64,000 nucleotides of DNA, from assembly GCA_040388415.1 (NCBI GenBank), contig JAZKBV010000004.1:24069-88068 (forward strand). The letters run 5' to 3'. Position numbers and translations under genes: made by a program. This stretch comes from Patescibacteria group bacterium (GTDB taxonomy: Bacteria; Patescibacteriota; Minisyncoccia; Phycocordibacterales; PALSA-1337). The notes below the pieces were generated by a model. The model made no database searches. It worked only from the letters and a program-made list of their open reading frames with translations, and was not told the DNA's origin. Shown here piece after piece: positions 46,466 to 60,948 of this stretch (position 1 is the stretch's first letter; the number at the start of each line of letters is the position of its first letter).

Positions 46466-47191
46466 TTATACATTAAGTGCCACGTATTCCAAGAGCATCT
46501 TCACTGATGGCGCGCGATCATTCAAATAATTTCGTGCCACCTCAATCGCTTCGAGTGCTAACTTTCCTTCTTTCACACTTTTCTCTTTATAAACAAGCCC
46601 CTGTACCGCATTCAAAAAATCAATCGCGTCCTGCTTTGTCTTTTTTTCTTTTGAAATAGCGTCAACAAGTGTTTTTACGATATCTAGTCTTTTTGACTGA
46701 TTGGCTTTGATGAAAGCTTCTGCATCCTTGATCAAGTCAGCGTCAGTTTCTTTTGAAGAACTCGCCTCGCCAATCAAAGAAAGGCGCGACTTCACCGTTG
46801 GCAGTAATAAATGTGCTGAAGGAATGATCAAAAAGAAACGTGCGTACTCTGCAGGCTCTTCGAGAAGTTTGAGGAGCGCATTCTGAGCTTCTATGGTGAT
46901 GCCGTTCATCGTAAGCACAAATATTTTCTTGCCTGCGCCATTATTTCCTTTTATCGAACCCTCGTCGGTTAGTGGTCGACTGCTATGTAATGATTTGATC
47001 TCACGCGCATCATCAATAGTGAATGTTTCGTAATTGCGAATATAAAAATCAGGATTGCCCTGTGCGGTTATTGTATGTTTCTTTTCAAGTATAGAAATGA
47101 GTTCGTCACGCGTTTCGGTGGTACCGACGAGGCCATATGCGTGGTGAGAAAGACTGCTGAGCTGATCAAAATGTTCGTTACTAGATTTCAT
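46466..47191 (-). CDS. holB: DNA polymerase III delta-prime-like subunit (degenerate P-loop)
   Basis: NALLKLLEEPAEYARFFLI...LLPTVKSRL matches the delta' sensor and box motifs. No intact Walker A. Confidence 0.6.
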   Translation of the reverse strand: MKSSNEHFDQLSSLSHHAYGLVGTTETRDELISILEKKHTITAQGNPDFYIRNYETFTIDDAREIKSLHSSRPLTDEGSIKGNNGAGKKIFVLTMNGITIEAQNALLKLLEEPAEYARFFLIIPSAHLLLPTVKSRLSLIGEASSSKETDADLIKDAEAFIKANQSKRLDIVKTLVDAISKEKKTKQDAIDFLNAVQGLVYKEKSVKEGKLALEAIEVARNYLNDRAPSVKMLLEYVALNV

Positions 47192-47269
47192 GCGGTTATT
47201 CTAGCATTTTTGAAAGGGTCGACCTACTATCCCCAGTTTTTTGTTAGATCCGACCTAGGAATTGTTGAT

Positions 47270-47308
47270 AAATAAAAAAGCGCTCGCCGACAGCTTGTCG
47301 ACGAGCGC
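47270..47308 (-). terminator. Intrinsic terminator on the minus strand upstream of holB
   Basis: On the minus strand, GCGCTCGTCGACAAGCTGTCGGCGAGCGC is followed by TTTTTTATTT. Confidence 0.75.
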
Positions 47309-47780
47309 ATGTGGGTGAATGTGTCATCCCCGGTTCGAAACATGTTCGTATACCGTCATAGACGACACTGGATTACGATTGAATGTTCTGCAGGAGCACT
47401 CTTTCAATTTAATCCTCTCTATATTTCAATTCTTGCTGTGAGTGAATTTCTGTCGCGCAACAGATTTCCAAGCAAGAACCATGGACAGAGTTGTCCGAAC
47501 CATGGCCGAGTTGGCGAATGGACTAACATTGATTTTCAAAGCACCTTCATCAATGATTCGTTTTGTACGCGGTCAATACGACGCGGAGTGCACGGGGACT
47601 TCCCACCGTTCATCATGCACTATCCAGCATCGCGACCGCGAGATTCGCGCAAAAGAAGCCGGCAATGATACTAACACTTCTCTTTAAGGCCGGCAAACAT
47701 TTGCGCTTTTTCAATGAACTAATGAACCTCGGAACTTTCGTACTTTGGATCAATCGACGATACTTACCGTCGTACCTGAG
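47309..47780 (-). ncRNA. Candidate structured ncRNA or long regulatory leader (about 480-500 nt), identity unknown
   Basis: Minus-strand promoter TTGACA (47810-47805), 16-nt spacer, TATGAT (47788-47783). The region is GC-enriched with multiple hairpins (e.g. GCGCAAAtgtttGCCGGCC...GCCGGCttcTTTTGCGC). It ends in the terminator at 47308-47270. Only short or implausible ORFs are present. Confidence 0.45.
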
Positions 47781-47782
47781 TA

Positions 47783-47810
47783 TCATAGCACCCCATACAA
47801 TATTTGTCAA
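47783..47810 (-). promoter_or_regulatory. Near-consensus sigma70 promoter TTGACA-N16-TATGAT (minus strand)
   Basis: Read directly from the reverse complement of 47783-47810. Confidence 0.65.
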
Positions 47811-47904
47811 GTACTATAAAATATTGCAAAATTGGCACTAAAAAACCTTATTTTCAGGGTTTTTTCTCCTCTCTAGATTCTCCTTACTTCTTTCTTCCTG
47901 TAAT

Positions 47905-48918
47905 TTATCTCTTCGCCACAATCGCCTTCTTATATACACCCAAATGCTCGAGAGCGATACCAGTTCCCTTTGCTACACAGAGGAGCGGTTCTTCGGCTAG
48001 CTGTGCCTTAACGCCAGTGCGACGGAATACAAGCTCAGGAAGGTTACGGAGCAGTGACGAACCACCAGTGAGCATGATGCCCTGATCGATGATATCAGCA
48101 GCGAGCTCAGGCGGTGTCTCTTGGAGAACGTCTTTGATCGCTTTGATCATATCGCGGAGCTCGGCAGTGATCGCTTTGACGATCTCATTTGTCTTGATCT
48201 CAGTTGAGCGTGGGAGACCGGTGATGAAGTCGCGACCCTTAACCTGCATCGAGAGCTCCTGATCGAGCGGAATAGCTGAGCCAATATTCATTTTGATATT
48301 TTCTGCCATATGATCACCGATAGCGAGGTTAAATGTTTTCTTTACATAATCAGTGATAGCATTGTCGATTTTATTTCCTGCGCACTTCACCGACGTCGAT
48401 GAAACGATACCGCCGAGAGAAATAACTGCGACGTCAGTTGTACCGCCACCGATATCTACCACCATATGACCTTTTGCTTCATGAATAGGAATGCCTGCAC
48501 CGATTGCAGCGAGAATAGGCTCTTTGACAACATATGCATTCTTGGCACCAGCACGAATAGCAGCTTCGATGACCGCACGACGCTCGGTAGATGTAACACC
48601 TGCGGGAACAGAGACCATGACATCAGGTTTGAAAAGATTGAAACGACCGAGTGCTTTGTCGATGAAATAGCGGAGCATTGCTTCGGTCACACGATAGTCA
48701 GCGATAACCCCATCTTTCATAGGACGATAGGCGACAATCGTATCTGGCGTACGACCGACCATTTCTTTTGCCTCGACGCCAACAGCAAGAACTTTCTTAT
48801 CGACTTCAGAGATAGCGACGACGGTTGGTTCATTGAGAACGATTCCCTTTCCAGGCACAAAAACAAGAGTATTTGCCGTACCCAAATCAATGCCGAGTTT
48901 TGGAGAAAACATGTTCAT
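47905..48918 (-). CDS. mbl: Second MreB/Mbl-like actin homolog
   Basis: LGIDLGTANTLVFV. 337 aa and colinear with MreB at 41344-42414. Confidence 0.85.
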   Translation of the reverse strand: MNMFSPKLGIDLGTANTLVFVPGKGIVLNEPTVVAISEVDKKVLAVGVEAKEMVGRTPDTIVAYRPMKDGVIADYRVTEAMLRYFIDKALGRFNLFKPDVMVSVPAGVTSTERRAVIEAAIRAGAKNAYVVKEPILAAIGAGIPIHEAKGHMVVDIGGGTTDVAVISLGGIVSSTSVKCAGNKIDNAITDYVKKTFNLAIGDHMAENIKMNIGSAIPLDQELSMQVKGRDFITGLPRSTEIKTNEIVKAITAELRDMIKAIKDVLQETPPELAADIIDQGIMLTGGSSLLRNLPELVFRRTGVKAQLAEEPLLCVAKGTGIALEHLGVYKKAIVAKR

Positions 48919-60651: not shown

Positions 60652-60948
60652 TTTGTTACTGGTTTTAGGTAGCATAAAGCCCACCACGTGGGCGACGGCT
60701 TGCGCCATCCATACCAGTTTCCCGATATGACCAGTAACGATAGCCCCACATGATGGGTTTTCTACTCGTTACTGGTTTTTTCACCATGTCAGTATTTCTA
60801 CTGATTTAGGCTACTCGTATAAAATATTGAATTGTGTTCCCATTAAACCATAAAATACTCTCGTTTAAAAGTGACATTGGGGCATTTGTTGATAAGTTTA
60901 ATATCAATCTAGTGTATAATATTGATATCAGTTTTTGATATTTGAACA

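What the first reader, a model, noticed from the sequence alone, without database searches (positions are those of the whole stretch)
47270..47810. About 500-nt promoter-to-terminator unit with no credible ORF between mbl and holB: candidate novel structured ncRNA or regulatory leader
On the minus strand, a near-consensus sigma70 promoter (TTGACA-N16-TATGAT) is followed by about 480 nt of locally GC-enriched sequence full of stable stems. These include a long stem closed by GCGCAAA/TTTGCGC with internal GCCGGC palindromes, CCATGGTTC direct repeats around a GGACA...TGTCC hairpin, and several CGCG-rich stems. It ends in a canonical intrinsic terminator 78 nt before the holB start. The only ORFs start inside the -10 box or are 25 codons or fewer. 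I compared it by eye against RNase P RNA (P4 AGGAAAGUCCGGGCUCC and ACAGAACCCGGCUUA motifs; only weak GGGAAGTCCCCG-like resemblance, in the wrong order) and tmRNA (no acceptor or T-arm ends, no ALAA-type tag ORF). Neither fits.
Basis: seen in the sequence. Interest (0 to 1): 0.6.

Follow-up and report, generated by a model that had tools for sequence, protein, structure and literature searches.

The report
Orphan structured RNA in variable slot
Between the cell-shape gene mreB and the replication gene holB of an uncultured Patescibacteria bacterium lies what looks like a stand-alone ~500-base gene for a folded, non-coding RNA; it matches no described RNA family and sits at a spot where related bacteria carry very different RNAs, among them an undescribed 490-750-base RNA family with clear base-pair covariation.

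Summary
On the minus strand an 11/12 sigma-70 promoter with a TG-extended -10 (47810-47782) is followed by ~470 nt with no conserved ORF, then a 13-bp terminator plus T-run (47308-47270), 78 nt before holB. The body folds better than shuffles (z -3.4 without the terminator, -4.8 with it) and better than its antisense. Rfam 15 and ARAGORN find nothing, so it is not RNase P RNA, tmRNA, 6S or a riboswitch. holB has its own conserved TGnTAGAAT-N6-ATG promoter, with or without the upstream unit, so a holB leader is unlikely.

Among 87 distinct relatives the mreB-holB junction is a variable slot: empty in 45, and elsewhere holding one or two promoter-to-terminator RNA units or unrelated protein genes. 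Seven relatives share a 490-750-nt RNA ("family A"; 44 pairs, 30 with compensatory changes), also absent from Rfam.

The window's RNA shares with them only the promoter, a 5' module (with L092) and the terminator style. Profile and covariance models do not recover its body. The body is unrelated even to its nearest relative, although mreB third codon positions are 64% identical.

Verdict: a probable independent structured ncRNA gene and an orphan allele of a fast-turnover RNA locus. Its function is unknown and its transcription untested.

The parts
47840..47866 (-). Weak terminator-like hairpin plus T-run right after the mreB stop (AAAAAACCCTGAAAATAAGGTTTTTT). It separates mreB from the RNA unit.
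   Evidence: Read from the sequence. The equivalent, stronger hairpin is conserved in L003, L084, L087, L092 and L122. It fell below the stem threshold of the scan.
47782..47810 (-). Sigma-70-type promoter: -35 TTGACA (47810-47805), 17-nt spacer, TG (47790-47789), -10 TATGAT (47787-47782). The predicted start is around 47777-47775.
   Evidence: Scores 11/12 with TG. Unique in the window. Conserved at 80-87% with L001, L003, L082, L084 and L092, where similarity stops at or shortly after the start site.
47707..47773 (-). 5' module: hairpin ACGACGG-UAAGUAU-CGUCG (47773-47755) and GUUCAUUAGUUCAUUGAAAAA (47727-47707).
   Evidence: The only part of the body with significant similarity to another slot RNA. 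RNA positions 10-33 and 59-75 match L092 positions 9-32 (83%) and 40-56 (94%), in the same order (z 4.6, 0/200 shuffles). CATTGA is the most frequent 6-mer in the first 90 nt of the slot RNAs: 8 of 25 units, against a shuffle maximum of 6.
47647..47706 (-). Long hairpin closed by GCGCAAA/UUUGCGC, with GCCGGC pairing to GCCGGC inside.
   Evidence: Present in both the MFE and the centroid structures. Coordinates.
47568..47640 (-). Long irregular hairpin closed by CGCGGUC/GACCGCG, with an apical GGG-AAGU-CCC stem-loop (47604-47595).
Evidence: Present in the MFE and centroid structures. Coordinates.
47527..47555 (-). Possible local hairpin CAUUGAU-GAAGGUGCUUUGAAA-AUCAAUG, seen by eye.
   Evidence: Read from the sequence as two complementary 7-mers. 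The predicted MFE and centroid structures do not form this hairpin; they pair both arms with the 5' region instead.
47430..47505 (-). CCAUGGUUC direct repeats around the GGACA-ACUC-UGUCC hairpin (47496-47483), then the stem UUCUUGCU/AGCAAGAA (47478-47471 with 47437-47430) enclosing the hairpin AAAUCUGU-UGCGCG-ACAGAAAUU (47467-47445).
   Evidence: This is where the family-A covariance model R2 places its sub-threshold hit (47432-47504, 7.5 bits, E 9.6). The resemblance is not significant.
47336..47415 (-). Three 3' hairpins: GGAUUA...UAAUCC (47415-47370), GUCGUC-UAU-GACGGU (47366-47352) and CGAA-CAUGU-UUCG (47348-47336).
   Evidence: Present in the MFE and centroid structures. Coordinates.
47270..47308 (-). 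Intrinsic terminator: GCGCUCGUCGAC-AAG-CUGUCGGCGAGCGC plus UUUUUUAUUU.
   Evidence: 13 pairs, 9 of them GC, with a 3-nt loop. Similar G/C-rich GYGCGYGUCGRC-type terminators end the units in L003, L010, L013, L014, L082, L084 and L092.
47189..47206 (-). holB's own promoter and start: TG (47206-47205), -10 TAGAAT (47203-47198), 6-nt spacer, ATG (47191-47189). This is a neighbour of the RNA unit, not a part of it.
   Evidence: Read from the sequence. The same TGnTAGAAT-N6-ATG is found in L001-L004, L087, L092 and L122 whether or not the RNA unit is present.

Best explanation
The unit is an independently transcribed, non-coding, highly structured RNA gene of about 500 nt (window ~47776-47270, minus strand). 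Transcription would start at a strong TG-extended sigma-70 promoter and stop at a strong intrinsic terminator. The product would act in trans through its folded shape, as a protein-binding or self-assembling scaffold, and not as a leader of holB or as an mRNA. It occupies a lineage-specific accessory 'RNA slot' between mreB and holB in Paceibacteria. The promoter, a short 5' module and the terminator style are retained there, while the body turns over faster than synonymous sites, so the window carries an orphan allele.

Shown: the anatomy, the lack of a conserved ORF, above-chance strand-specific folding, the absence from Rfam, the variability of the slot, and the covariation of a related RNA family in the same slot.

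Inferred: transcription, action in trans, and the scaffold or sponge mode of action.
For: - Promoter and terminator quality and uniqueness.
- Folding: z -4.80 for the whole unit and -3.36 for the body alone, with 0/100 shuffles as good in each case. The sense strand is 18-22 kcal/mol more stable than the antisense.
- All nine slot RNAs tested fold better than shuffles (z -2.5 to -8.5) and better than their reverse complements.
- No conserved ORF: no Pfam hit; tblastn and tblastx against 126 related loci hit only the promoter DNA; the 119-aa antisense ORF has no homologue among 5.8 billion proteins.
- The promoter is conserved with relatives, while similarity ends at the start site. The 5' module is shared with L092.
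- The same slot holds a 490-750-nt RNA family. In its 3' domain 98.6% of cells are paired and 30 of 44 pairs show compensatory changes; 0/500 shuffles reach this, and slid controls pair 35-50%. Two covariance models recover an untrained member, L083 (E 3e-5 and 3.9e-5).
- holB has its own promoter.
- The unit is single-copy and has no terminal inverted repeats or target-site duplication.
Against: - There is no expression data.
- This exact sequence has no homologue, so no covariation test is possible for it.
- A z-score of about -3.4 for a single sequence is suggestive, not proof of a functional fold.
- The family-A profile HMM and both covariance models fail to detect the window RNA, so the covariation evidence transfers only by shared locus, promoter and 5' module.
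- The unit is absent from close relatives (L002, L004), so it is dispensable.
- The hand alignment used was fitted to the proposed structure.
- The trans-acting scaffold function is an analogy, not a result.
Confidence: 0.55

Rival explanations
1. The sequence-specific function lies only in the promoter and terminator. Transcription across the slot might insulate mreB from holB or set local supercoiling, or the unit may be a leftover expression cassette. The transcribed body would be essentially unconstrained filler that drifts or is replaced.
For: Bodies of close relatives share no similarity while the promoter and terminator are kept. The unit is dispensable (L002, L004). The slot accepts unrelated cargo, including protein genes.
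Against: Filler should not keep excess, strand-specific folding energy in every lineage. Family A shows conserved loops and compensatory changes, so at least those bodies are constrained. The WIN-L001 bodies are less similar than neutral expectation: mreB third codon positions are 64% identical, while body identity equals the shuffled baseline. That argues for replacement or positive selection, not drift.
Confidence: 0.15
2. It is a cis-acting 5' leader or attenuator whose terminator read-through controls holB-frr-rseP.
For: It is co-oriented with holB and lies directly upstream. The terminator is 78 nt from the holB start.
Against: holB has a conserved TGnTAGAAT -10 element 6 nt before its ATG in genomes with and without the unit. 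Relatives with the same operon have a 20-50-nt junction. Two complete units occur in tandem in L036, L079 and L083. No riboswitch, T-box or leader family matches. No alternative antiterminator pairing was seen in the predicted folds.
Confidence: 0.07
3. It encodes one or more small proteins: sense-strand ORFs of 26-38 codons, or the 119-codon antisense ORF.
For: Such ORFs exist. Hypervariable small secreted peptides often sit between a strong promoter and a terminator (own knowledge).
Against: No Pfam hit. No tblastn or tblastx conservation in relatives outside the promoter DNA. No homologue of the 119-aa ORF in 5.8 billion proteins. That ORF starts inside the terminator stem, on the strand opposite the promoter. 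In family A the apparent reading frames differ between L084 and L087 (read from the sequences).
Confidence: 0.05
4. It is a highly diverged copy of a universal RNA: RNase P RNA, tmRNA, 6S or SRP RNA.
For: GGGAAGUCCCCG (47604-47593) and AACCGGGGAUGA (47335-47324) resemble the two strands of RNase P helix P4, and their 5-nt cores are complementary. 6S RNAs are known for poor sequence conservation (own knowledge).
Against: No Rfam hit to any RNase P, tmRNA, 6S or SRP model, even at E<=10 in an 851-nt search. None in 18+5 related loci. No tmRNA by ARAGORN. The 3' strand lacks the conserved CUUA and the geometry for the bulged U. The P4-like 5' strand lies 178 nt from the start and folds locally. 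The motif is absent from the L001 and L003 bodies, and the whole unit is absent from close relatives. The predicted fold is multi-branched, not a 6S rod.
Confidence: 0.03
5. It is a remnant or cargo of a mobile element or an integration event at a recombination hotspot, with no function for the cell.
For: The junction is a hotspot with varied cargo. There is presence/absence polymorphism among close relatives.
Against: No terminal inverted repeats, target duplications or other copies in the window. No phage similarity. No integrase or transposase nearby. The promoter is vertically conserved with relatives that carry different bodies.
Confidence: 0.05

Closest known systems
Large 'ornate' bacterial ncRNAs of unknown or partly known function (OLE, ROOL, GOLLD, raiA, HEARO)
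   Same: Size class of 450-750 nt. A stand-alone gene with many hairpins. In family A there are GNRA-like loops, a possible loop-strand pseudoknot and a palindromic (GAUC) loop that could mediate self-association. ROOL, GOLLD and OLE form homo-oligomers (abstract of PMC12286853).
   Different: No sequence or structure match to their Rfam models. A different phylum (Patescibacteria). A fixed chromosomal slot instead of phage or tRNA-associated contexts. Much faster turnover of the body. Oligomerisation is untested here.
Protein-sponge sRNAs such as CsrB/RsmY/RsmZ, and 6S RNA (own knowledge)
   Same: An independent promoter-to-terminator gene. The function resides in repeated or overall structure more than in primary sequence. 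The body evolves fast while the promoter and terminator are conserved. Family A has GGA in the H7 loop and in the single strand before the terminator.
   Different: Only 2-3 GGA sites, not the 9-22 of CsrB. No Rfam hit to CsrB, Rsm or 6S models. Not a 6S-like rod. No partner protein identified.
Bacterial RNase P RNA
   Same: Length class, and a GGGAAGUCC-like string with a complementary CGGGG near the 3' end.
   Different: Fails the covariance models. Lacks the other conserved regions. The motif is absent in neighbouring alleles. The unit is dispensable in close relatives.
'Family A' slot RNA of related Paceibacteria
   Same: Same slot, same promoter (TTGACAAAt...GGGGTGCTATGATAC), same terminator style and similar length. 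The 5' hairpin plus GGUUCAUUGAAAAA module is shared with L092. By eye there are collinear look-alikes of several helices.
   Different: The profile HMM and two covariance models do not recover the window RNA. Pairwise body identity equals the shuffled baseline.
LOOT RNA (RF03000), present in the same window at 60694-60812
   Same: A Patescibacteria-associated structured RNA of unknown function, found by comparative genomics.
   Different: 121 nt, an unrelated sequence, and a different locus.

Membership tests
RNase P RNA (bacterial type A/B) | Match to the family covariance models (Rfam RNaseP_bact_a, RNaseP_bact_b and related) | tested here: not met
   No hit at gathering score in the window. 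No hit at E<=10 in 47100-47950.
RNase P RNA (bacterial type A/B) | P4 helix formed by the conserved GGAAAGUCCGG and ACAGAAnCCGGCUUA strands, with a bulged U | tested here: not met
   Only a 5-bp CCCCG/CGGGG complement exists (47604-47593 with 47335-47324). The 3' strand continues AUGA instead of CUUA. The 5' strand folds locally in the MFE structure. Checked by eye against the consensus from own knowledge.
tmRNA | tRNA-like acceptor and T-arm ends, plus a tag-peptide reading frame | tested here: not met
   ARAGORN finds 6 tRNAs and no tmRNA in the window. No Rfam tmRNA hit.
6S RNA | A rod-like hairpin of about 180-200 nt with a central bubble, and a match to the 6S models | tested here: not met
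   No Rfam hit. The RNA is 507 nt and its predicted fold is multi-branched.
Riboswitch, T-box or attenuator leader | A known aptamer or leader fold, with the downstream gene depending on read-through of the terminator | tested here: not met
   No Rfam cis-regulatory hit above noise (the best was SAM-II at 14.9 bits, E 7.9, outside the unit). holB has its own TGnTAGAAT-N6-ATG. The unit is absent in L002 and L004.
OLE / ROOL / GOLLD / HEARO / raiA large ncRNAs | Match to the family covariance model | tested here: not met
   No hit in the window or in 23 related loci.
   Window 47432-47504 scores 7.5 bits, E 9.6, rank 10 of 11. The precursor model R1 scored the untrained member L083 at 33 bits (E 3e-5); L083 was then added to the alignment used to build R2.
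   R3 gives no collinear hit in the window, whereas L083 scores 27.6 bits. nhmmer with the family profile does not hit the window, L001 or L003.
   Two collinear matches to L092 at 83% and 94% identity. Local-alignment z 4.6, 0/200 shuffles.
Protein-coding gene | An ORF conserved at the protein level, or matching a known family | tested here: not met
Mobile element (MITE or IS remnant) | Terminal inverted repeats, a target duplication, or multiple copies | tested here: not met
   No phage match.

The most novel reading that the evidence does not exclude
The mreB-holB junction of Paceibacteria is a dedicated, fast-turnover locus for large, highly expressed structured RNAs. A conserved promoter, 5' module and terminator frame bodies that are swapped or diversified faster than synonymous sites. 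These bodies include an undescribed 490-750-nt ornate RNA family with a pseudoknot and a palindromic kissing loop, and the window carries one orphan allele. Such behaviour would point to an RNA under conflict-type or partner-specific selection (phage, host or symbiont interaction) in ultra-small episymbiotic bacteria.
Probability: 0.25. Interest if true: 0.8.

Novelty: new variant of a known kind. Interest (0 to 1): 0.6.

Why it matters
Large structured non-coding RNAs (over 400 nt) are rare in bacteria, and each new class has revealed unexpected biology. Patescibacteria have tiny, gene-dense genomes, so 500-750 nt of strongly promoted non-coding DNA kept at one locus in many lineages is unlikely to be idle.

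If transcription is confirmed, this gives three things:
- a new large RNA family (family A) with enough covariation to model;
- a natural series of non-homologous or hyper-diverged 'alleles' under one conserved promoter, which is unusual and could make the selective force on such RNAs testable;
- a marker locus for mining uncultured CPR genomes for RNAs that current Rfam-based annotation misses.

Tried and rejected
- Direct homology search of the window RNA against 80 genome loci (blastn, nhmmer): nothing.
- Rfam at gathering and E-value thresholds on the window and 23 related loci: nothing.
- My by-eye alignment of the window RNA to family-A helices (loop ACUC(C), stem UUCUUGCU/AGCAAGAA, loop UGCGCG against YCGCAA, AGAGAGG against GGAGAG) looked collinear. 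Two covariance models and a profile HMM did not support it. I therefore do not file the window RNA as a family-A member.
- Scanning viral contigs with the promoter pattern gave over 120 generic hits and no RNA homologues. The pattern is just a strong extended -10 promoter.
- Phage blastn, Pfam on the ORFs, tblastn/tblastx against relatives and a 5.8-billion-protein search with the antisense ORF: all negative.
- Closer relatives could not be found. The nearest HolB proteins are 89%, 84% and 83% identical. The 83% strain's contigs start 47 nt before holB, and several look-ups returned no DNA.
- A full-length covariance model was not attempted. At 318 columns it is far beyond the sizes the tool documentation quotes calibration times for, and the tool refuses long calibrations.
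- Literature searches found no description of this RNA.

Full report
**1. What is in the window**

The window comes from a Patescibacteria (Paceibacterota) metagenome-assembled genome. Its HolB is 100% identical to a protein named as coming from a 'Patescibacteria group bacterium', and its best relatives are Paceibacterota/Parcubacteria MAGs.

On the minus strand the gene order is murA, mreB (48918-47905), the unit under study, then holB (47191-46466), frr and rseP.

After a weak terminator-like hairpin that closes mreB (47866-47840) comes the promoter. It reads TTGACA, a 17-nt spacer, then TGcTATGAT (47810-47782), and scores 11/12 with an extended -10. It is the only exact match to that pattern in 64 kb; chance expectation is 0.11.

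About 470 nt later there is a 13-bp, GC-rich terminator with a T-run (47308-47270). It ends 78 nt before the holB ATG.

Three small corrections apply:
- The spacer is 17 nt, not 16.
- GC enrichment is modest.
- Sense ORFs reach 38 codons and antisense ORFs reach 119 codons.

**2. Coding or not**

- None of the ORFs has a Pfam match.
- tblastn and tblastx against 126 related loci hit only the conserved promoter DNA.
- The 119-codon antisense ORF starts inside the terminator stem and has no homologue among 5.8 billion clustered proteins.

I conclude that the region does not encode a conserved protein.

**3. Structured or not**

- The 507-nt transcript folds to -176.1 kcal/mol, z -4.80, with 0/100 dinucleotide shuffles as good.
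- Without the terminator it is -151.6 kcal/mol, z -3.36, 0/100.
- The antisense strand is 18-22 kcal/mol weaker, with z -3.2 and -2.5. That is the asymmetry expected if G-U pairs matter on the promoter strand.

This is suggestive for a single sequence, but it is not proof.

**4. Known families**

- Rfam 15 (4227 models) gives nothing in the region at gathering scores.
- At E<=10 on an 851-nt slice it gives only noise.
- ARAGORN finds no tmRNA.
- The RNase P-like strings exist and their cores are complementary: GGGAAGUCCCCG at 47604-47593 and AACCGGGGAUGA at 47335-47324. The rest of the P4 signature and every other conserved region are missing, and the 5' string folds locally.

I reject RNase P RNA, tmRNA, 6S, SRP RNA, T-box, riboswitches, OLE, ROOL, GOLLD, HEARO and raiA.

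**5. Relatives: a variable slot**

HolB-anchored scans returned 80 genome loci and 37 metagenome loci, and look-ups added a few more. The mreB-holB synteny is conserved.

Among 87 distinct junctions the gap lengths are:

| Gap length | Junctions |
|---|---|
| <=150 nt | 45 |
| 151-299 nt | 9 |
| 300-800 nt | 21 |
| >800 nt | 12 |

- Two of the closest relatives, L002 (HolB 84%) and L004, have only about 20-50 nt there.
- Most of the 300-800-nt gaps read contain the same architecture as the window: a cTTGACAAAt...tGCTAtaAT promoter, 130-750 nt without a conserved ORF, and a strong terminator. A few (L038, L039, L047) hold ORFs instead.
- L036, L079 and L083 carry two complete units in tandem.
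- Other genomes carry unrelated protein genes in the slot.
- In every case holB is preceded by TGnTAGAAT-N6-ATG. This implies holB has its own, probably leaderless, promoter.
- That, together with the empty junctions and the tandem units, argues against a holB leader or attenuator.

**6. A real RNA family in the slot**

L082, L083, L084/L085, L087-L089, L092, L122/L123 and L125/L126 share an alignable 490-750-nt RNA, which I call family A. blastn shows 70-73% identity over 126-294 nt, and nhmmer E-values run from 1e-19 to 1e-124.

I hand-aligned the 3' domain of five members, using N in place of gaps so that MAFFT kept the register. Nine helices with 44 pairs were counted on this alignment:
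- 98.6% of cells are paired.
- 30 pairs show changes on both sides.
- 0/500 shuffles reach the observed values.
- Slid controls pair 35-50%.

Caveat: the alignment was fitted to the structure.

Independent checks:
- Covariance models of two sub-domains recover L083, which was not used to build them, at E 3e-5 and 3.9e-5.
- The model-made alignment that includes L083 keeps 98.3% pairing, with 15 of 21 compensatory pairs.

Conserved features, read directly from the sequences:
- GCAA/GCGAA-type loops.
- An invariant GGAGAG that could pair with the CUCC loop of helix H3. In L125 the pair is CCUC with GAGG.
- A palindromic GAUC in the H7 loop.
- GGAAAUUGG before the terminator.

No Rfam family matches these RNAs, and I found no description in the literature.

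**7. How the window RNA relates to them**

It shares three things with family A:
- The promoter: 80-87% identity, ending at or just after the start site.
- A 5' module with L092: RNA positions 10-33 and 59-75, at 83% and 94% identity, collinear, z 4.6.
- The terminator style.

The rest of the body has no significant similarity to any other slot RNA:
- Local-alignment scores fall within the shuffle range.
- Global identity to L001 is 56%, against 57% for shuffled sequence.
- The family profile HMM does not detect it.
- Neither do the two covariance models: 7.5 bits, E 9.6 at 47432-47504, and nothing collinear for the second model.

My by-eye collinear resemblance is therefore a lead, not a result.

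The lack of similarity is more than drift would give. WIN and L001 differ at only 36% of mreB third codon positions. L084 and L087 show the same divergence, yet they keep 73% identity over 294 nt of RNA.

L003 and L122 have holB 85% identical at the nucleotide level and also carry unrelated bodies.

So the bodies are either replaced or evolve faster than synonymous sites, while the promoter and terminator persist. All nine bodies tested still fold better than chance (z -2.5 to -8.5) and better than their antisense.

**8. Other rivals**

- The unit is single-copy in the window and has no terminal repeats or target duplication.
- It has no phage similarity.
- The promoter pattern is common in phage contigs, but none of those loci contains a related RNA.

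**9. Verdict**

The best reading (confidence about 0.55) is an independent, non-coding, structured RNA gene. It occupies a lineage-specific, fast-turnover RNA slot and represents an orphan allele. A trans-acting structural role as a scaffold or sponge, possibly self-associating, is inferred by analogy only.

It belongs to no described family. Its link to the newly defined family A rests on the shared locus, promoter, 5' module and terminator, not on its body.

Transcription, ends, fold and function all remain to be tested. The decisive experiments are listed under next steps.

Noticed in passing
window 60694-60812 (-): A LOOT RNA (Rfam RF03000) at 87.5 bits, E 3.4e-15. It is a second structured RNA of unknown function in the same window.
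   Followed up: no
window 47206-47189 (-); also L001 3479-3498, L002 1176-1195, L004 3475-3492: holB is preceded by a conserved TGnTAGAAT -10 element exactly 6 nt before its ATG, with no Shine-Dalgarno spacing. This suggests a leaderless holB mRNA across this clade.
   Followed up: partly
L083 145-632 and 687-905; L128 2237-2455: L083 carries two tandem promoter-to-terminator RNA units: a family-A RNA, then a ~215-nt 'type B' RNA. Type B is homologous to the single unit of L128, so it is a second undescribed RNA family at the same slot. L036 and L079 also have two tandem units.
   Followed up: partly
L019, L021, L029, L034, L044, L056, L058, L076, L080, L123, L128 (mreB-holB gaps): In other Paceibacteria the same junction holds unrelated protein genes, so it is a general variable hotspot. 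By eye these look like NUDIX-like, solute-binding-protein-like, AIR-synthase-like, M16-peptidase-like, AI-2E-transporter-like and pilin-like proteins. None was run against family libraries.
   Followed up: no
L118, L120, L121 (contig starts correspond to window 47238): Three contigs from two metagenome assemblies, representing two strains (HolB 100% and 83%), all begin 47 nt upstream of holB, just downstream of the RNA terminator. The likely cause is an assembly-graph break where co-occurring strains share the holB promoter region but differ upstream.
   Followed up: partly
L047 3017-3501 and L019 2130-2600: The slot holds a ~120-aa ORF, 70% identical at the DNA level between the two loci and flanked by ~40-nt inverted repeats. 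It looks like a small mobile cassette.
   Followed up: no
L122 versus L123 (1401-1853): Two contigs with identical HolB and an identical RNA unit differ by a 136-aa membrane-protein gene inserted between mreB and the RNA promoter. Their mreB genes are only 90% identical, which suggests recombination at this junction.
   Followed up: no
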